DNA of 64,000 bases, taken from assembly GCF_003019035.1 (NCBI RefSeq), contig NZ_CP027447.1, one strand, 5' to 3'. The position numbers and the translations under genes are program-made. The notes beneath the pieces were generated by a model. The model saw nothing but the letters and a program-made list of their open reading frames with translations, did no database searches and was not told the origin of the DNA. The stretch is from Escherichia coli. Its GTDB lineage: Bacteria; Pseudomonadota; Gammaproteobacteria; Enterobacterales; Enterobacteriaceae. Below, piece after piece: positions 1-8,603 of this stretch. Within the stretch, counting starts at the first letter, position 1. Each line of letters starts with the position of its first letter.

Positions 1-415
1 ATACCTCCCCCGTACGGTCCAAAATTTGAATACCAACATTTTGGGCAGAGCCTGCCGCTGAACTCTGCAGCGCTAACGTATCGTCATTACTGGTGACAGT
101 AGTACCCAGGAATGCAACAGCTGCATTACTGGAAACATTGGTATCACAATCATTCAACTTGATATTGAAGCCAACGGCAGAGCTGAGGTCACCCGCTTTA
201 GCCAGGCGAGAAGAACGGACCTGACCCAGCTCAACCGTTTGGTTCATTGATTCTGAATCAATCGCACAAGCGGCATTTACCACTTCACCTTTAAAATGAA
301 TAACACCGCCATTAACAGTGGTCGTTACTGATTCATCACCCTCGGCTGCGCTTACCGCAGCAGACGACATCGCCAACACAGAAACGACAATCATACCGAC
401 ATGTTTGAGTTTCAT
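1..415 (-). CDS. Type 1 (FimA-family) fimbrial major subunit, partial; start codon at 413-415, 3' end runs off the window
   Basis: Reverse-strand translation [55 protein letters not shown]... has a signal peptide and the Cys-containing fimbrial subunit pattern; open frame to position 1. Confidence 0.7.
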
Positions 416-848
416 AATTCTCCAAAATTTATATTTAAGTAGCTGAATAAAGAAAGTTAACAATCAAGTCATTCTGTTATTGCTTATAAAACAAGAATCA
501 TTCTTGATGGGATATTGCCCTGAGAATATAGTTTCCGGGGTTATTACATTTCACGAAGAACGATAATATCTTTAAATTACAAGGACACCTAATCACAACA
601 AGTTTATTGCAGCACTTGTTGTAGAGAGTATTTGCAAAGACATTTTATGTCGCTAAATAACATGACAATTTCATTATGCATGTTATTTATAAACCGTGAC
701 TAAACAGAATATTATTGCGAACAAGGGAAGTGTCAGGAAAGGTCAAGAGCGACCAATGGCTTATATGGCTATAAATCATTAGCTATAGTTAATGTTTGCC
801 TGGTGTAACTAACACGGAATTGCTCTAAACAGATAAGTGCAGGGTTTA

Positions 849-1103
849 TTAAAGCTGACCGACAGACTTTCTTAACCTGGTAATATCTCTCTTAGGTGAC
901 TCTCCAAACATCCGCGAATATTCCCGACAGAAATGGGATAAGCTTTCGTAACCGACAACATAGGCTGCAGTGGTGACATCGTAATGTTCATTCAGCATCA
1001 GTCGCCTGACTTCATTGAGGCGTAGCCATTTCTGATACCGGAGTGGACTCATTCCCGCAAGCTGTCTGAAGTGTTGATGGAAAGAGGGGGTGTTCATTTG
1101 CAC
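849..1103 (-). pseudogene. yneL: AraC-family regulator C-terminal HTH fragment (yneL-like)
   Basis: 84-aa ORF carries only the second AraC-type HTH (…SPLRYQKWLRLNEVRRLMLNEHYDVTTAAYVVGYESLSHFCREYSRMFGESP); no full-length frame upstream. Confidence 0.55.
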
Positions 1104-1383
1104 GCGGTTTGCCAGCCTGACTCTTCAACGCAGGGAAGATGCGGCAAACGGCAAACCTGCATACCAGCCAGCCTATATCCGGTATGCACAGGCCAATCAT
1201 GAAAGAGGAGAGGCTTTATGTTCTGGAACCCTGAAGTAATAACGACGACCGAAAAATCGCTTCGCATCACTCAAATTACATTTAACATAATATACATTAT
1301 GCGCACCAACATAAACCAAGGGAGAATCCAGTCGTTGGCGGTCATGATTGTCCTGCTCATTAACAACGGCCAAACCCCATATC

Positions 1384-2706
1384 TTACTTAATACCGTATT
1401 CTCGGCTTAACCGACGGTGCAACCTTAACACATTGGTTTCAACTGCCGTCACCACGTTCTCCGGAAAATCTGTCGGTAATGAAGTCTTCACATGATCCAG
1501 TGCTGCCGGAATCATTCTGGCAAAGTCACTCAGGATTTCATGCATCTGCACTTGCGGAAATTTCAGCACCTTTGCTGTCGCCAGAAAATGTCGCGGATAA
1601 ATTTTATCGATTGCCGTTTTTTTGCCTTTGGATGCGTTAAGCCCCATTGCCAGTTTGAGATCGCTGATGTGTATTCCTGCGCCACCCAATACCGGAAATG
1701 CTGAAATGATGTCGTAAAATGGCGTGAGTCGATAACTGCCGCCAGCCTGAATAAATACGGAGAAGTTTTTTGCATGGCCATCCGTTGCGCCAATCAACCA
1801 CTGGAAGACCTGGAATTTCATAAAATCATAACGATCTTTCAGCGCCTCGCTGGACCCCATCAAAAAAGCCATGATCCGCGCGATGCCTGGGCCTCCATCT
1901 GATTCATATTTCACCGATGAAGGTAAACCAAATGTCTGACACATATCCTCCTGTGGCAAGCGAAGTAAAACCGTTCGCTCAGTATTCCAACGCCTGTCAA
2001 AACGTTCGACCGCTAACGCGCGCACATTTCCCGCTTTAATGATTTCTGCGTCCGGCACATTCAACCCAAGTTCTTTCGCCAGCAGCAGACAGTAATACTC
2101 ATTATCAACGCTTTGGCTGAGATCGAGCGTCGCATTGGGCTGCCTGATTTCGCCAATCGGTAATTTAATGATGTGCGTCGTCGGCGTTATTCCTTTCGGA
2201 ATGCACCAGTCATTGCCTATTCTGAGCAGTGCTGTCTTCTCCTGTGCGCCAGCAACCGAGATGCGAAAGTCATTTTCTTCTCTAATCATGCCTAGCGGGA
2301 TATCTGCTTTATAAGCCGTTAATACTTCTTCAAGTCTGGCTTCAGTAAGCTTTTCCCATGCCATTATCGGACGCGTTACGGTTTCGTCTTCGGGTATTAA
2401 CGTCACAGCACCAACGCTGTCTCGCCCTATTTCTGACAATAAATCAAACGGTTGTCTGGATTTAGCATGATAACGTTTAACGATCCGGTCACGTACAATC
2501 GGGCTATCGGGTAGCAGGTTATCGAAGAAGTTAAATACAGCATCAGAGGTGATATTCCCCCTCTGCAATGGCAGCGAAAGTGATAACGGTCTGGCATAAC
2601 GGTTGGCTAACCACTCCGGTGCATACTTAAAGGTGTGCGCGCCGTTGGCTAACTTCGTTAACTCGCCTACCCGCTGGTTGTTCATCCAGGTGACAAGTTT
2701 AGGCAT
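1384..2706 (-). CDS. hipA: HipA serine/threonine kinase toxin (440 aa from MPKLVTWMNNQRVGE)
   Basis: Full-length match to HipA; the 459-aa track ORF is an upstream extension overlapping hipB; true ATG overlaps the hipB stop by 1 nt. Confidence 0.95.
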   Translation of the reverse strand: MPKLVTWMNNQRVGELTKLANGAHTFKYAPEWLANRYARPLSLSLPLQRGNITSDAVFNFFDNLLPDSPIVRDRIVKRYHAKSRQPFDLLSEIGRDSVGAVTLIPEDETVTRPIMAWEKLTEARLEEVLTAYKADIPLGMIREENDFRISVAGAQEKTALLRIGNDWCIPKGITPTTHIIKLPIGEIRQPNATLDLSQSVDNEYYCLLLAKELGLNVPDAEIIKAGNVRALAVERFDRRWNTERTVLLRLPQEDMCQTFGLPSSVKYESDGGPGIARIMAFLMGSSEALKDRYDFMKFQVFQWLIGATDGHAKNFSVFIQAGGSYRLTPFYDIISAFPVLGGAGIHISDLKLAMGLNASKGKKTAIDKIYPRHFLATAKVLKFPQVQMHEILSDFARMIPAALDHVKTSLPTDFPENVVTAVETNVLRLHRRLSREYGIK

Positions 2707-2972
2707 TACCACTCCAGATCTTGCTGTTCTGTTGATTCTGGCGAGGCATTTTTCGTGTCGCATAGCGTCATTGAGAGTTCAAGCGACTGTAAAATCTTAA
2801 AAAATGTCGTGAGCGTGGTATTGTCAGGGTTGTTTTCGAAATTGGAAATTGTCGCCTGCTTAATACCGATTTTTTTCGCCAGCTCGCTCTGCGTCCAGCC
2901 ATTTTGCTGACGAACCAGTTTCATTGCATTCGCTAATTGCGTTGGGTTATAGATCTTCTGAAAGCTCATCAT
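2706..2972 (-). CDS. hipB: HipB antitoxin, Xre-type HTH repressor (88 aa from MMSFQK)
   Basis: Sequence recognised as HipB; position immediately upstream of and overlapping hipA. Confidence 0.9.
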   Translation of the reverse strand: MMSFQKIYNPTQLANAMKLVRQQNGWTQSELAKKIGIKQATISNFENNPDNTTLTTFFKILQSLELSMTLCDTKNASPESTEQQDLEW

Positions 2973-2993
2973 GTCATACGTCCACAGCATATT

Positions 2994-3107
2994 TATCCGC
3001 TCAAGGGGATATTATCAGTTTTATCCTTTAGTGGGGATAAAGTCAATCAGGAAACACATCTTATCCGCTCTACGGGATAAACACTGTGATATCCGCGATC
3101 GCGGATA
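2994..3107. promoter_or_regulatory. hipBA promoter-operator region with four TATCC-N8-GGATA HipB operators
   Basis: Palindromes read directly at 2994-3011, 3022-3039, 3062-3079 and 3090-3107. Confidence 0.85.
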
Positions 3108-3146
3108 AAAAGGAGGATTTAAAAGTCGTTTGAAGTCGGCAATATT

Positions 3147-3175
3147 AAGCCGCATGCATCTTCGACATGCGGCTT
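3147..3175 (-). terminator. Candidate terminator hairpin downstream of the autotransporter gene
   Basis: 10-bp perfect stem AAGCCGCATG / CATGCGGCTT; trailing U-tract on the minus strand is weak. Confidence 0.35.
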
Positions 3176-3182
3176 ATACGGT

Positions 3183-6100
3183 TTACCAGCTATATTTCAC
3201 ACCCAGCATGCCCTGAGTATCGCTATAGCCTTTATCACCTAGTTGCACACCGACATTCCCCCACAGGCTAAGGTTGTTATTTACTTTCGCCTCAACCCCG
3301 GTACGTACTTCACCGAGATTACGCGCACCATCACGGCTTACGTTTTGACCATTCATCTTCACGGCGTAGACTTTGCTGTTGTTGATCCAGTTCGCTTCAA
3401 TGTAAGGCTGGAACTCACGCTGTTTACCATTGTCACGCTGGTGATGACTGTTCTGGTAGGTTTTCACCCCAAGTCGTGTTTGCACGTTTCCGTCTCCTTC
3501 CGTTTCAATGCGTGTTCCGTCTTTCCGGGTATGGTCAGAATCTTTCACACCCATCCAGGTGATTTGTACCTGTGGCTGGACGTACCAGGTATTCAGCGTC
3601 CCTTCGCTGCCGCTAAATGTTCCCGCTTCAAAGGTATACCCACCCTCAACAGAGGCCGTCACACCGCGAGAATCATAGTCGTCAGCAGAACGGTTATCGG
3701 AACTGACGCTGTTATCAAACCAGTTATACAGCGCCCAGCTGTCAACATAAGCGCCGGTCTTATTCGCATCGTTCTGATACCAGGTCGCGTACAGTCCTGC
3801 GCTGTAACCGCTGATGCGCCCATCCGATTTATAACCCACATGATTACTCTGAGTATTACTGTGCTGATTGGCATAGCCTGCCATCACGCCGAGATGCCAG
3901 CGATCCTGCGCGTTGCTACTCCACTGCGCCAAATCGCCGCCTAGCTGCAATACATAGCGGTTAGCCTGAGTATTTAGCTGACCATCACCGGTCCTGAAAC
4001 GTTCGTGCCCTCCGACATGACGCATCCATATACTGGTTGCCGAATCCTGAACTCGCAGTGAATCTGTATACTGCGGCTCACCCAGACGGTCGTGTAAGCG
4101 ATGGCTAAACAGCGAGTTGGCTGCGGCAATGTTGCTGATATAGCTTCCGGCCTCCGGGCGATAAACTGATGGGCCTTCCGGATCCACAACAGGGGGATTA
4201 TTGATGGGATCGGGTGTATCCGCTGGCGTTACGCCGTCCCATTTACTGGTCAGATACCAGTTTTTCTCGTCATTCCCCTTCCCTTTAGCCAGCGTGTAGA
4301 CGTAAGCCCCAGCTTCGACAGTTCCGGTGGTCAGCGCGAAGTTACCTGCAGAATTACCGCCAACCTCAATGAGTTCAATACCGTTGACCGTTTGTGCACC
4401 GACGCCGCCAATGTTATTAACCCGAACGCGGGTATTGCCCTGCGTATCACCTTTTACGTTCATTTTATCCGTGGGGGAATTATCGCTACCCAGCGTCGCG
4501 TTGAACGTCATCAGGCCATTGTTTCCGGTATAGTTACCGTTAACGGTCAGTACATTCCCCGGTTTCCCCCCTTCGCTGTTCATTTGAACCGTGCCACCAT
4601 TCTCCAGGTTACCGCCGACAGTGGTTTTAGCGACACGCAGTGTCCCCCCAGGCATAACGTTCACATCACCTGCAGTGGTGACATTTCCCGACATCACACC
4701 GCTGTTATGGATATTAATGTGCTGACTTGCCATATTAATGGCAGAGTCGGAACCGAAAGCAATTTCACCACCCACGATATCCGTCGTACCCTGGTACGCC
4801 GCGGAATCGTTGTTAAGAGTCAGGATCCCGGACCCCAGTTTTGTCACACCGCCGCTACCGGTGATACTGTGCGTCATCGCCCAGCTACGCTCAGTGGAGA
4901 TGGTGAGCAGGCCATTATTGATAACGGAAGCATCACCCAGGTTTTTCTGCTCGTTGACGCTGAGCGCGCTGCCTGTATCAATGTTGAATTGCCCCACAAA
5001 GCGGCTATTATCGCCATCCAGCTCTACGTCTGTCCTGGCGGTTGCGCTCACGATACCCTTCCCGCTTATGCTATTACGCAGTTCGCCGGTCACGTTTTTT
5101 AGCGTTAACAGACCGTCATTGGCAATATTTCCTCTGCCTAACCCCTGCGTATTATCGAGGCTGACTTCCGCATTTGGGCTAACGCTGGTTAACGCATTGT
5201 AGCGTGCATTAAGCCCCTCGATAGCCAGCGTTCCCCCTGTAACATTCAGGTTTCCGCCACCTGTCAGTTCACCCTGACTGATCCCACCTTTATTCACCGT
5301 CAGCGACCCTTCTTTGAACAAAACAGTCGAACCCATCTGCCCGGTGAATGTCTCTACCGTCTGCGTCGATCCATTAAGATCGACGATGGCCGCGTTGCTG
5401 ATGTTCAGTTCCCGGGTGTTGCCCAGCGCGCCATCCGCATCGGTACGTAATGTCCCCATCTGAACGTAGGTTGCCCCCTGATAGTCGTTCTGACCGTTGG
5501 AAAGCGAAACCTGTCGCACCGTATTGATTGCCAGATCCCCTTCACCACCGATTTTTGCCGACATATCGGCCGTTGCGCCATAGGCTCCGCCATGTTCGGC
5601 TAATGTCAGCTTTTGCCCACCATGGATGTTCAGCGCTTTCAGCCCATAGTTAACGTACAAACCATCACCTGGTGCGGTCGTGAGGCGGAATCCATAATCA
5701 CCCTCGGCGACCACCGTTCCGTTTTGCGCAATGTGTAACGTTTTGTCCGCTTCCACCTCGTCGCCCTGTAAATCACGTAACGTTAATGAGCCACCCGACC
5801 CAATAACCGTTTGCGCCTTCACCAGTTGAACGCCGACATGGTTATCATCGTGTTCCAGCAAATTGAGCGTCGTCAGAGGGTTATTCGCCATGGGATCATT
5901 CCACGGTTTAGGCACGTCGATAAGCACGTCGCCCGTCCCGTTTACCTGATAGTTACGGCCTTTCCAGGTGTAGTCACCCGCGCCGACAGCCAGCGTATCG
6001 ACGCTGATATATCCCTCCGCAAGCGTCGCAGCAGGTATATCCGTATCGAAAGTGAGCGTACCGCCATTCATGGCTAGTCCACCAATGGATTGCTCTCCCA

Positions 6101-8603
6101 CGTTTACCGATGTGGTATTTTCACTGTCAGACTGAAGCATCGCGTGAGTAAGCGCAGCGGTGTTGTCGCGTTCCAGTGTGAAGGTACTGTCTTTCAGTTG
6201 GACAACACCGGCGAATTCAGTTCCTGTTGCATGGGTAAAGCCAAACATTTTGTCGGAGGATGACAGCTGCACTCGCATCAAGCCATCGCCTTTGAGCGCA
6301 TTGGTCAGCGTGTAATCTCCTGCGCTGTTCGTTGATGCGAGAATGTCGAGCGTACCGGGGCTTGCAATGGTGACTTCACTCGAACCCATGCCCGTTACCC
6401 CATCTGCCGTATGTGACGCAATGGTCAGGAGGCCGTCATTGACCAGCGTTTTACCGCTATAAGTATTCCCTGCATTGAACACCGTATGGCCTGCATCATG
6501 TATCACTTTTCCGTCTTTATCGTCACCCGTAATCAGCATATCGACCTGGTAGCCGGCATCACTGTTATTGGTATGATTAAAGACAAAAACACCTTCGCCA
6601 GAACCAAACTCTACTTTCGTCGCGTTGGCGATAAACCCGGCATCTGCCGCCGCCTCACCGTGAGCAGCACCAATGTTTAGCGTTCCTACAGCAGGTTCAA
6701 AAAGACCTAAGTAAACTTCGCCACCTTCGACATTCAGCGTGCCGTTATTCGTCAGGGTTAACGTACCCGTACCAGACGTCCCTACATTCATATTGAATGT
6801 TTCAAGAAGAGAGTTCTGCCCATCCACCCGCACGTCGCCCTTACTTTTGTCATTCAGAGCTATCTGTGTATCACGCGCTTTAACTATACCTCCGGTGGTA
6901 ATATTCAGTTCACCCGTACCTAATACACCGACCTGTAGCAATTGGGCGTTAGTAGATGACGTTTTTAAATTCCAGAGACTATCCGTTGAAATATTAACTA
7001 TCCCCTTACCGGAGGCATTTCCTCCGATAAATCCATAGCCCGTTGAATTAAGGGTGGCACCATTACTGACATTTACGATGCCGCTACCAAAATTACCGAC
7101 ATTGATACCTACAGTATCGAACGATGATGTCGCATCCATCAGGTTCAGTGTGCCGATACCGCTTGCTTTATCGCCCAAAAAAGTAATATTTTGCGATACG
7201 AACTTACCGCCATCGCTGATATTGAGGTTTCCGACGCCCGCAACACCAATGGTGGTGTAGACATTCTTATTGACCTCCCATATCCCCCCCGTGGTGATGC
7301 TAACCTTCCCGACGCCGGTTTCTCCATAACCGAGTGAACTTCCTCCGTTGCTGACAACAAGCCCCTCATTACTGATATTCATTTCGCCGTGGCCGTCATA
7401 ACCAAGATTAGTTCCGAGATTAGTGATAACGGAGTTCTTATCCTTAACAGTAATGTTGCCTGTGCCTGTTTCTTTCATCCCCGCAGTGATAATTCCCGAA
7501 TCTACTTTGCCTTCACTAGAGACATTAAGTTCACCGTCGCCAGCATCACCGATATAGATATAGCGGAAAGCTTCGCCCGTTCCGAGGAAATTCCAATGCC
7601 CTTTATCGGTCACGTTGACGACACCGTGGGAACCGTCCTGAACGCCCACCAATGAATATTCTTTGTTATTAATCAGTCCATTATTGGAAATATTGACTTT
7701 GCCATTACCGAAATATCCATTATAGAGTCTGCGTACCGTGATGACAGAGTCTTGATCCTGCACATTCAGGGTTCCGATACCGGTGGCATTGCCTCCGATA
7801 ATCGTATTTTCAGCCGTAATTAGCCCACCCTCGCGAATAGTCGCTTCCCCAGTTCCTTGATTACCAATTTGAAATTCAATTGAGGAATCGTTATTTTTTA
7901 TTAGCCACTCACCGCCCTTTTCAACGACAACCTTACCATTACTGTTCGCTTGATATCCTACAGTGGCGACTATTGAACTCGTGACGTAACCCTTATCCGT
8001 AATATTTAATGAGCCCGTACCGTAACTCCCTATTTCGAATAATTCGGTCGTCAGAACCGAGTCCTCTCCCTCAACATTAACCGTCCCGACGCCTCCTGTC
8101 GAAGAACCTATCCTTAAATATCCTCCGTCAACGTGACCCTTCTGTTTAATATTCAGCGTCCCCGTTCCGGATTGACCCACATTTAAAGGCCTTGCATTAT
8201 TTCCGCTATCATACAATCGCCAGGTCCCACCCAAAACATTAACGGTGCCCTCCGAGTCCTCATTAGCGCCAATGACGCTGGTAGTAATAGTGGTTAAGGA
8301 AGCATTACCGCCAGCCAAAATATTAAGCACTCCAGTGCCATACCAGCCAACCAGGTAGGCATCATAAGCAACATCAGTATCAATATTGGTAATCTGACCA
8401 TTATCAACTTCCAGACTCGCACCAGACGCTGAACCGCTTAGTGCCAGCAAAACACCCAGCGTCAATCTACTGAGTTTCGTTGTCAGTCCAGAGGATTTAC
8501 GCAAATTAACCGTCGATGTTTTACCTACCCTGCGAGTTAATTCAGAGCAGGCCTGAAATACCTGTAGAGTGCAATTCCATATCACGCGATAGATTCTATT
8601 CAT
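3183..8603 (-). CDS. AIDA-I-type autotransporter adhesin, 1806 aa, intact (YdeK/YneO-family locus)
   Basis: N-terminal extended signal peptide (MNRIYRVIWN...), long Gly/Thr/Asn-rich beta-helix passenger repeats, C-terminal beta-barrel ending ...LGVKYSW. Confidence 0.85.
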   Translation of the reverse strand: MNRIYRVIWNCTLQVFQACSELTRRVGKTSTVNLRKSSGLTTKLSRLTLGVLLALSGSASGASLEVDNGQITNIDTDVAYDAYLVGWYGTGVLNILAGGNASLTTITTSVIGANEDSEGTVNVLGGTWRLYDSGNNARPLNVGQSGTGTLNIKQKGHVDGGYLRIGSSTGGVGTVNVEGEDSVLTTELFEIGSYGTGSLNITDKGYVTSSIVATVGYQANSNGKVVVEKGGEWLIKNNDSSIEFQIGNQGTGEATIREGGLITAENTIIGGNATGIGTLNVQDQDSVITVRRLYNGYFGNGKVNISNNGLINNKEYSLVGVQDGSHGVVNVTDKGHWNFLGTGEAFRYIYIGDAGDGELNVSSEGKVDSGIITAGMKETGTGNITVKDKNSVITNLGTNLGYDGHGEMNISNEGLVVSNGGSSLGYGETGVGKVSITTGGIWEVNKNVYTTIGVAGVGNLNISDGGKFVSQNITFLGDKASGIGTLNLMDATSSFDTVGINVGNFGSGIVNVSNGATLNSTGYGFIGGNASGKGIVNISTDSLWNLKTSSTNAQLLQVGVLGTGELNITTGGIVKARDTQIALNDKSKGDVRVDGQNSLLETFNMNVGTSGTGTLTLTNNGTLNVEGGEVYLGLFEPAVGTLNIGAAHGEAAADAGFIANATKVEFGSGEGVFVFNHTNNSDAGYQVDMLITGDDKDGKVIHDAGHTVFNAGNTYSGKTLVNDGLLTIASHTADGVTGMGSSEVTIASPGTLDILASTNSAGDYTLTNALKGDGLMRVQLSSSDKMFGFTHATGTEFAGVVQLKDSTFTLERDNTAALTHAMLQSDSENTTSVNVGEQSIGGLAMNGGTLTFDTDIPAATLAEGYISVDTLAVGAGDYTWKGRNYQVNGTGDVLIDVPKPWNDPMANNPLTTLNLLEHDDNHVGVQLVKAQTVIGSGGSLTLRDLQGDEVEADKTLHIAQNGTVVAEGDYGFRLTTAPGDGLYVNYGLKALNIHGGQKLTLAEHGGAYGATADMSAKIGGEGDLAINTVRQVSLSNGQNDYQGATYVQMGTLRTDADGALGNTRELNISNAAIVDLNGSTQTVETFTGQMGSTVLFKEGSLTVNKGGISQGELTGGGNLNVTGGTLAIEGLNARYNALTSVSPNAEVSLDNTQGLGRGNIANDGLLTLKNVTGELRNSISGKGIVSATARTDVELDGDNSRFVGQFNIDTGSALSVNEQKNLGDASVINNGLLTISTERSWAMTHSITGSGGVTKLGSGILTLNNDSAAYQGTTDIVGGEIAFGSDSAINMASQHINIHNSGVMSGNVTTAGDVNVMPGGTLRVAKTTVGGNLENGGTVQMNSEGGKPGNVLTVNGNYTGNNGLMTFNATLGSDNSPTDKMNVKGDTQGNTRVRVNNIGGVGAQTVNGIELIEVGGNSAGNFALTTGTVEAGAYVYTLAKGKGNDEKNWYLTSKWDGVTPADTPDPINNPPVVDPEGPSVYRPEAGSYISNIAAANSLFSHRLHDRLGEPQYTDSLRVQDSATSIWMRHVGGHERFRTGDGQLNTQANRYVLQLGGDLAQWSSNAQDRWHLGVMAGYANQHSNTQSNHVGYKSDGRISGYSAGLYATWYQNDANKTGAYVDSWALYNWFDNSVSSDNRSADDYDSRGVTASVEGGYTFEAGTFSGSEGTLNTWYVQPQVQITWMGVKDSDHTRKDGTRIETEGDGNVQTRLGVKTYQNSHHQRDNGKQREFQPYIEANWINNSKVYAVKMNGQNVSRDGARNLGEVRTGVEAKVNNNLSLWGNVGVQLGDKGYSDTQGMLGVKYSW

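What the first reader, a model, noticed from the sequence alone, without database searches (positions are those of the whole stretch)
1..848. FimA-like major subunit gene at the window edge, next to the AraC-type yneL fragment
The first gene encodes a type 1 fimbrial major subunit with signal peptide, reading leftwards out of the window from an AT-rich ~430-bp promoter region (418-848). The adjacent AraC-family gene is only a C-terminal fragment. This suggests a chaperone-usher operon whose dedicated regulator has decayed; the K-12 equivalent (ydeQRST) is, as I recall, further degraded.
Basis: partly seen in the sequence, partly recalled or inferred. Interest (0 to 1): 0.3.

Follow-up and report, generated by a model that had tools for sequence, protein, structure and literature searches.

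The report
Start of the known F9 fimbrial operon
The window's left edge holds the start of the well-studied E. coli F9 (Fml) adhesive-hair operon and its mapped, H-NS-silenced promoter; the broken regulator gene beside it is debris from an unrelated gene cluster, so the finding is ordinary.

Summary
A minus-strand gene starts at ATG 415-413 and runs off the left edge (138 codons, no stop). It encodes a signal peptide and a pilin 70% identical to FimA. Positions 416-848 are an AT-rich gap (32.8% GC against 49% for the window). Positions 849-1103 encode only the last ~87 residues of an AraC-type regulator (yneL).

The window's first 11.4 kb is identical to E. coli SCU-301. That genome continues with an intact chaperone, an 883-aa usher, two minor pilins and the FmlH adhesin. 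This is the F9/Fml (ydeQRST) operon, already characterised. Its published promoter (-35 TAGTCA, -10 CATAAT, start site 251 nt before the ATG) is present at 702-666. It is repressed by H-NS at 37 °C and expressed at about 20 °C.

There is no sign of a phase switch: 0 of about 5,000 genomes carry either candidate inversion, against 247 for the fimS control.

The "decayed dedicated regulator" idea is not supported. yneL is the tail of a 304-aa AraC_N-type regulator that elsewhere pairs with a hydrolase gene. Positions 849-1383 are a string of scraps of that cluster, and B2 strains with intact f9 lack yneL. Already known; low interest.

The parts
1..415 (-). 5' three-quarters (138 of 187 codons) of the F9/Fml fimbrial major subunit gene. 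PGAP calls it 'fimA'. It is the first gene of the f9 operon and continues beyond the left edge of the window.
   Evidence: Translation has no stop. The first 11.4 kb of the window is 100% identical to SCU-301, where the CDS is 564 bp. Pfam Fimbrial and the NCBIfam FimA equivalog both match. 70% identical to K-12 FimA. Best solved-structure match is FimA, E 7.5e-68.
347..415 (-). Signal peptide coding region: 23 residues, [23 protein letters not shown], with predicted cleavage after VSA.
   Evidence: Read from the sequence. Alignment to mature FimA chains starts at about residue 29-31. No cleavage-site predictor was run.
416..666 (-). 251-nt AT-rich 5' leader of the f9 mRNA, with the ribosome-binding site GGAG at 423-420.
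   Evidence: Wurpel 2014 mapped the start site as a G 251 nt upstream of the ATG. Window base 666 is C on the + strand, which is G on the - strand. The leader folds no better than shuffled sequence (z -1.56). No Rfam match.
673..702 (-). f9 sigma-70 promoter: -35 TAGTCA (702-697), 18-bp spacer, -10 CATAAT (678-673).
   Evidence: Found by the promoter scan. It matches the 5'-RACE-mapped CFT073 promoter (-35 TAGTCG, -10 CATAAT, 18-bp spacer; PMC3966885). B2 strains carry the TAGTCG form.
654..689 (.). Perfect 11-bp inverted repeat, TAAATAACATG-N14-CATGTTATTTA, spanning -23 to +13 across the -10 box and the start site. It is a candidate operator or H-NS nucleation site, not described as such in the sections of the paper read here.
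   Evidence: the repeat finder pair I1. Only 1.3% of dinucleotide shuffles give a short-gap repeat of 11 nt or more. Both arms are unchanged in 6 of 7 lineages aligned; the seventh has one mismatch.
416..848 (.). f9 regulatory intergenic region, 433 bp at 32.8% GC. It is the target of H-NS silencing.
   Evidence: GC content. H-NS binding to the f9 promoter fragment is shown in PMC3966885. The region is full-length in 3,414 of 5,426 genomes.
849..1115 (-). yneL pseudogene. It is the C-terminal ~87 residues (second half of the DNA-binding domain) of a 304-aa AraC_N/HTH_18 regulator, with an in-frame stop further upstream.
   Evidence: Pfam HTH_18 only. 89% identical to residues 217-303 of WP_000622442.1. 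Three-frame translation shows the upstream stop. PGAP marks it 'missing N-terminus'.
1118..1306 (.). Three further scraps of the same ancestral cluster: an alpha/beta-hydrolase fragment (1118-1177), the DUF2255 gene start region (1199-1243), and a 32-bp distal piece (1275-1306).
   Evidence: blastn against the Klebsiella-type loci L003/L005 and the intact E. coli cassette L014 gives 91-97% identity, collinear. The shared peptide motif EDAANGKPAYQPAY appears.

Best explanation
Window 1-848 is the promoter-proximal end of the E. coli F9 (Fml, 'Yde') chaperone-usher fimbrial operon, a paralogue of the type 1 fim operon.

Shown: transcription starts at base 666 (minus strand) from a sigma-70 promoter at 702-673. 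It runs through a 251-nt AT-rich leader into the major pilin gene (415 to 1) and on, outside the window, into chaperone, usher, two minor pilins (YdeS, YdeR) and the tip adhesin YdeQ/FmlH. All six genes are intact in the source genome.

Inferred from family knowledge: pilins cross the inner membrane by the Sec pathway. They are held by the PapD-type chaperone and polymerised at the usher by donor-strand exchange into a rod tipped with FmlH.

From the literature: FmlH binds terminal Gal/GalNAc epitopes (Gal-beta1-3-GalNAc and Gal-beta1-3-GlcNAc). H-NS bound to the AT-rich promoter region keeps the operon silent at 37 °C, and repression is relieved at about 20-28 °C. There is no invertible-DNA switch and no adjacent dedicated regulator.

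The neighbouring yneL stub is an inert remnant of an unrelated regulator-plus-hydrolase cluster. That cluster once lay between hipBA and f9 and has been whittled down by different deletions in different lineages.
For: Identity to SCU-301 and the intact six-gene operon.
Domain content (Fimbrial, PapD_N/C, PapC_N/Usher/PapC_C, FimH_man-bind).
45-70% identity to Fim proteins, gene for gene.
The adhesin lectin domain matches solved FmlH structures (6AOW, E 2e-107). All six ligand-contact residues named by Kalas 2018 (F1, Y46, D53, K132, N140, R142) are conserved.
The promoter and start site coincide exactly with the 5'-RACE map of Wurpel 2014.
H-NS and temperature control.
No inversion in about 5,000 genomes, against 247 for the fimS control.
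yneL origin.
B2 strains lack yneL but keep f9.
Against: Expression, H-NS binding and receptor specificity were measured in CFT073, UTI89 and O157, not in this strain. The -35 box differs by one base (TAGTCA here, TAGTCG in CFT073). The part of the operon outside the window is inferred from an identical public genome rather than seen in the window itself. Regulators other than H-NS, which the conserved palindrome over the -10 box might indicate, are not excluded.
Confidence: 0.93

Rival explanations
1. One reading: yneL was the dedicated AraC-type regulator of this fimbrial operon, and its decay has orphaned the operon.
For: yneL lies immediately upstream of the f9 promoter on the same strand. 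AraC-family activators such as Rns, CfaD and AggR do control some chaperone-usher fimbriae (general knowledge). One database entry calls a fragment 'putative fimbrial operon transcriptional regulator' (P0099).
Against: Intact homologues (89% identical in the shared part) are AraC_N+HTH_18 proteins paired divergently with hydrolase or alcohol dehydrogenase genes. No fimbrial genes lie within ±8 kb in Klebsiella or in the E. coli argW island. Scraps of that hydrolase and of a DUF2255 gene lie next to yneL in the window. Klebsiella has the regulator without f9. The two B2 E. coli strains examined have f9 and its promoter without yneL, and B2 strain CFT073 makes functional F9 pili. Wurpel 2014 found no link between these regulators and f9.
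Confidence: 0.05
2. The AT-rich region 416-848 contains a fimS-like invertible promoter element that gives phase-variable F9 expression.
For: F9 is a close paralogue of type 1 fimbriae, which use the fimS switch. An 8-bp inverted repeat (471-478 / 703-710) brackets the promoter, and another (450-457 / 866-873) brackets the whole region.
Against: Neither inversion occurs in any of about 4,900-5,100 complete genomes that hold the region. The same test finds fimS flipped in 247 of 4,718 genomes. 8-bp inverted repeats are at chance level in this sequence: 3 observed, 2.4±1.5 expected. No recombinase gene adjoins the operon. The word 'phase' does not occur in the main text of the F9 regulation paper.
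Confidence: 0.02
3. Besides H-NS, a dimeric site-specific regulator binds the conserved 11-bp palindrome over the -10 box and start site (654-689) and acts as an operator for f9.
For: The perfect 11-nt arms with a 14-nt gap are matched in only 1.3% of shuffles. The repeat is centred on -5, over the -10 box and the start site. It is conserved in all lineages aligned, including K-12, with a single mismatch in one.
Against: The whole promoter region is 93-100% conserved within the species, so conservation alone carries little weight. AT-rich DNA gives palindromes fairly easily, and 1.3% is not compelling after looking at many features. No candidate protein has been identified. Published putative H-NS motifs at +8 and +14 overlap one arm.
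Confidence: 0.2

Closest known systems
F9 / Fml fimbriae of E. coli (c1931-c1936 in CFT073; ydeQRST remnant in K-12; adhesin FmlH/FmlD)
   Same: Same locus between ydeP and hipBA. Same six-gene order. Same mapped promoter and 251-nt leader. The adhesin lectin domain is near-identical to the solved FmlH structures, with all ligand-contact residues conserved.
   Different: Only allelic differences. The -35 box is TAGTCA rather than TAGTCG as in CFT073. The upstream junk is the yneL-type allele rather than the B2-type allele.
Type 1 fimbriae (fimAICDFGH with the fimB/fimE/fimS switch)
   Same: Same gamma-1-type chaperone-usher architecture. The proteins are 45-70% identical gene for gene. The adhesin has a FimH-like two-domain layout.
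   Different: No fimI equivalent, no fimB/fimE recombinases and no invertible element. Per the literature, it is galactoside-specific rather than mannose-specific and is expressed at low temperature. PGAP's label 'fimA' for this gene is a paralogue over-call by the NF011741 equivalog model.
AraC_N (PF06719) + HTH_18 regulators, e.g. WP_000622442.1 in the E. coli argW/intS island and its Klebsiella counterpart
   Same: The yneL fragment is 89% identical to residues 217-303. The neighbouring hydrolase scrap matches the divergent hydrolase gene of the same cassette.
   Different: yneL lacks residues 1 to about 213, which is the whole AraC_N domain and most of the first helix-turn-helix. It has an in-frame stop upstream. 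K-12 and other lineages have an additional frameshift.

Membership tests
Chaperone-usher fimbrial operon (gamma-1 / type-1-like clade) | Major pilin with Sec signal peptide and Fimbrial (PF00419) domain | tested here: met
Chaperone-usher fimbrial operon (gamma-1 / type-1-like clade) | PapD-type periplasmic chaperone and a full-length usher (PapC_N, Usher, PapC_C) encoded in the same operon | tested here: met
   Both lie outside the window, in the 100%-identical genome SCU-301: L001 8779-9489 and 6086-8737.
Chaperone-usher fimbrial operon (gamma-1 / type-1-like clade) | Two-domain tip adhesin (lectin domain plus pilin domain) | tested here: met
   YdeQ has FimH_man-bind plus a Fimbrial domain. 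It matches the FmlH lectin-domain structures.
F9/Fml fimbriae specifically | Chromosomal position between ydeP and hipBA, with gene order major pilin, chaperone, usher, two minor pilins, adhesin | tested here: met
   compared with the description in Wurpel 2014.
F9/Fml fimbriae specifically | Mapped promoter: -10 CATAAT, 18-bp spacer, start site a G 251 nt upstream of the ATG | tested here: met
   This is sequence coincidence only; transcription was not measured in this strain.
F9/Fml fimbriae specifically | FmlH galactoside-binding pocket residues F1, Y46, D53, K132, N140, R142 | tested here: met
F9/Fml fimbriae specifically | H-NS repression at 37 °C, pili made at about 20 °C, Gal-beta1-3-GlcNAc/GalNAc binding | not testable with these tools
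   Experimental properties taken from PMC3966885 and PMC5866590. The low GC content (32.8%) is consistent with an H-NS target.
fimS-type invertible phase switch | Promoter segment flanked by inverted repeats and found in both orientations in populations or genomes | tested here: not met
   0 genomes carry either candidate inversion, against 247 for the fimS control. The inverted repeats are at chance level.
fimS-type invertible phase switch | Adjacent tyrosine recombinase genes (fimB/fimE-like) | tested here: not met
   No such gene lies between ydeO and lsrR in the annotated locus.
Functional AraC-family transcription factor (for yneL) | Complete ~100-aa two-HTH DNA-binding domain plus an N-terminal sensing or dimerisation domain | tested here: not met
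   Only residues equivalent to 217-303 of 304 are present. AraC_N is absent and there is an upstream in-frame stop.

The most novel reading that the evidence does not exclude
The conserved perfect palindrome TAAATAACATG-N14-CATGTTATTTA across the f9 -10 box and start site could be the operator of an unidentified site-specific repressor or anti-silencer. Such a factor, together with H-NS, might set the low-temperature or inflammation-induced expression of F9 pili. Separately, the hipA-f9 gap records stepwise, lineage-specific erosion of a ~6-kb regulator/hydrolase cluster.
Probability: 0.15. Interest if true: 0.3.

Novelty: already known. Interest (0 to 1): 0.1.

Why it matters
F9/Fml pili matter in their own right. 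They aid uropathogenic E. coli persistence in inflamed bladder and kidney, bind plant xyloglucan in O157, and FmlH is a drug and vaccine target. All of this is published, and the window adds only another intact allele.

The practical value of this check is corrective, in three ways. First, the gene labelled 'fimA' by automated annotation here is the F9 major pilin, not type 1 FimA. Second, yneL should not be read as a lost fimbrial regulator. Third, reported 'YneL proteins with a FimA domain' are deletion-generated chimeric ORFs.

Tried and rejected
1. Invertible switch. I built two artificially inverted versions of the promoter region (479-702 and 458-865) and searched 5,426 complete E. coli genomes. 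Neither gave a full-length match. The fimS positive control gave 247. Rejected.

2. Structured leader or riboswitch-like element in the 251-nt 5' UTR. The fold z-score is -1.56 and there was no Rfam hit at E≤1 in 1-3200. Nothing found. The 9-bp hairpin at 595-622 is conserved but shows no covariation.

3. Search for a full-length YneL at the f9 locus in E. coli. The protein search returned only fragments and chimeras of 160 aa or less. Full-length copies exist only at another locus, the argW/intS island.

4. Fur-box or other known operator resemblance of the palindrome. An alignment by eye to the 19-bp Fur consensus gave about 10 of 19 matches, which is unconvincing, so I did not pursue it.

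5. Context of the more distant homologue P0022. It sits among transposases in a metagenome contig and is uninformative.

Full report
**What is in the sequence**

On the minus strand an ATG at 415-413 opens a reading frame that runs without a stop to the left edge of the window (138 codons). The product begins with a typical Sec signal peptide ([29 protein letters not shown]).

Window 1-1400 is 100% identical to E. coli SCU-301, NZ_CP051751.1. The first 11,400 bases of the window match that genome with zero mismatches. I therefore used that record (locus L001) to see what lies beyond the edge.

There the gene is a 187-aa CDS. It is followed by five more genes, none flagged as a pseudogene:
- a 236-aa chaperone
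- an 883-aa usher
- ydeS
- ydeR
- ydeQ

Pfam gives Fimbrial; PapD_N + PapD_C; PapC_N + Usher + PapC_C; Fimbrial; Fimbrial; and FimH_man-bind + Fimbrial. Gene for gene, the proteins are 45-70% identical to K-12 FimA, C, D, F, G and H. The major subunit is 70% identical to FimA.

**Which operon this is**

The position between ydeP and hipBA and the six-gene order are those of the F9 (Fml) fimbrial operon described by Wurpel et al. 2014 (PMC3966885).

The adhesin's lectin domain matches the solved FmlH structures (6AOW, E 1.8e-107). It keeps all six ligand-contact residues named by Kalas et al. 2018: F1, Y46, D53, K132, N140 and R142.

PGAP's name 'fimA: type 1 fimbrial major subunit FimA' arises because the protein scores 174 bits against the NF011741 equivalog cut-off of 140. 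It is a paralogue, not type 1 FimA.

**The AT-rich gap**

Positions 416-848 have 32.8% GC, against 49% for the window.

The promoter scan found TAGTCA-18 bp-CATAAT on the minus strand at 702-673. Wurpel et al. mapped the f9 start site in CFT073 by 5'-RACE as a G 251 nt upstream of the start codon. They reported it preceded by -10 CATAAT and -35 TAGTCG with an 18-bp spacer.

In the window, the base 251 nt upstream of the ATG is 666. It is a C on the plus strand, so a G on the coding strand. The published promoter is therefore present at exactly the expected place, with one difference in the -35 box. B2 strains carry the TAGTCG form.

The same paper shows three things:
- H-NS binds this promoter fragment.
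- H-NS represses F9 at 37 °C.
- Pili are made at 20 °C.

The 251-nt leader shows no significant structure (z -1.56). There is no Rfam match in 1-3200.

**Phase-variation switch**

Two 8-bp pairs bracket the promoter or the whole region. Such pairs occur at chance frequency here: 3 observed, 2.4±1.5 in dinucleotide shuffles.

I built the two hypothetical inverted forms and searched 5,426 complete E. coli genomes. No genome carries either form. The same test applied to fimS found the flipped orientation in 247 of 4,718 genomes.

No recombinase gene adjoins the operon. There is no evidence for an invertible switch.

**K-12**

In MG1655 the locus reads ydeQ-ydeR-ydeS-ydeT(1,149 bp)-yneL'.

Alignment shows one 3,281-bp deletion, L001 7313-10593. 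It removes the N-terminal ~57% of the usher gene, the chaperone, the major pilin and the leader down to window base 593. It retains the promoter and the first 73 nt of the leader.

Across 5,426 genomes, 3,644 (67%) hold at least 80% of the operon in one piece. The K-12-type deletion is common among the rest. This is in line with the 60% intact figure reported in 2014.

**yneL**

The ORF at 849-1103 matches only HTH_18/HTH_AraC. A search of 5.8 billion proteins returned only fragments and chimeras of 160 aa or less in E. coli. It also returned longer pieces from Klebsiella that extend into an AraC_N-type N-terminal domain.

In Klebsiella-type genomes the gene is about 300 aa, AraC_N + HTH_18. 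In those error-prone assemblies it is split by frameshifts. It lies divergent from an alpha/beta hydrolase, followed by DUF2255, a DJ-1/PfpI-AraC gene and a GAPDH-like gene. On the other side is a DeoR/FGGY/DeoC sugar cluster. There are no fimbrial genes.

Eighty-six E. coli genomes carry an intact 304-aa copy next to the hydrolase and an alcohol dehydrogenase, in an intS/argW island. The window's fragment is 89% identical to its residues 217-303.

blastn shows that window 1118-1177, 1199-1243 and 1275-1306 are further collinear scraps of the same cluster, at 91-97% identity. K-12, ATCC 25922 and CUVET20 retain different scraps. So the hipA-f9 gap is the eroded remnant of a roughly 6-kb regulator/hydrolase cluster.

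B2 strains such as ATCC 25922 have an intact f9 major-subunit gene and f9 promoter but no yneL at all. F9 is functional in B2 strain CFT073. Wurpel et al. had already noted that the 5' region is variable, with three hypothetical regulators and no evidence linking them to f9.

The 'decayed dedicated regulator' reading is therefore not supported.

**Side observations**

(a) A perfect 11-bp palindrome (654-664 / 679-689) spans -23 to +13 of the promoter. It is matched in only 1.3% of shuffles. It is conserved in six of seven lineages aligned, with one mismatch in the seventh. It is a candidate operator, but the evidence is weak.

(b) Database proteins P0103 and P0081 join the yneL stub in frame to residues 65-187 or 118-187 of the F9 major pilin. 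These are deletion-generated chimeras. They explain the 'FimA domain inserted in YneL' reported for BL21 in PMC9308461.

**Verdict**

The feature is the already characterised F9/Fml operon start with its published promoter. Novelty: already known. Interest: low.

Noticed in passing
window 849-1383: The yneL-hipA gap is a collinear chain of four small remnants of a ~6-kb cluster still intact in Klebsiella: the AraC_N regulator tail, an alpha/beta-hydrolase piece, the DUF2255 start and a distal 32-mer. K-12, ATCC 25922 and CUVET20 keep different scraps, which implies several lineage-specific deletions.
   Followed up: yes
window 654-689: A perfect 11-bp inverted repeat, TAAATAACATG-N14-CATGTTATTTA, is centred on the f9 -10 box and start site. 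It is matched in 1.3% of shuffles and conserved across lineages. It could be an operator.
   Followed up: partly
window 594 (K-12 deletion endpoint); L001 7313-10593: The K-12 deletion ends inside the f9 leader, right at the foot of a 9-bp hairpin (595-603 / 614-622). K-12 therefore keeps the f9 promoter and 73 nt of leader fused to the truncated usher ydeT. The remnant genes may still be transcribed from the f9 promoter.
   Followed up: partly
proteins P0103, P0081 (E. coli): These are in-frame chimeric ORFs joining the yneL stub to the C-terminal part of the F9 major pilin. They were created by deletions that remove the whole f9 promoter. They account for the published claim that YneL of BL21 contains a FimA-like domain (PMC9308461).
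   Followed up: yes
window 1-415 / L001 9852-10415: RefSeq/PGAP names the F9 major pilin 'fimA: type 1 fimbrial major subunit FimA', and in some genomes names ydeS/ydeR 'fimF/fimG'. The NCBIfam equivalog cut-offs admit the paralogues.
   Followed up: partly
window 3183-8603 (minus strand): An intact 1,806-aa autotransporter ('ECSE_1600 family'). It corresponds to the yneO pseudogene of K-12.
   Followed up: no
L014 9035-12479 (E. coli WP2-S18-ESBL-07): An intact copy of the YneL-type regulator, with a truncated alcohol dehydrogenase and the alpha/beta hydrolase (weakly similar to UilS-type lactonases). It sits in an intS/argW island in 86 E. coli genomes and is 92.6% identical to the Klebsiella-type locus L005, which suggests horizontal transfer of the cassette.
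   Followed up: partly
window 1059-1185 vs K-12 L002: The stretch just upstream of the yneL stub is unrelated between this strain and K-12. They are two alleles, each derived from a different part of the hydrolase gene region. K-12 and several other lineages also carry a 1-bp frameshift in yneL that this strain lacks.
   Followed up: partly
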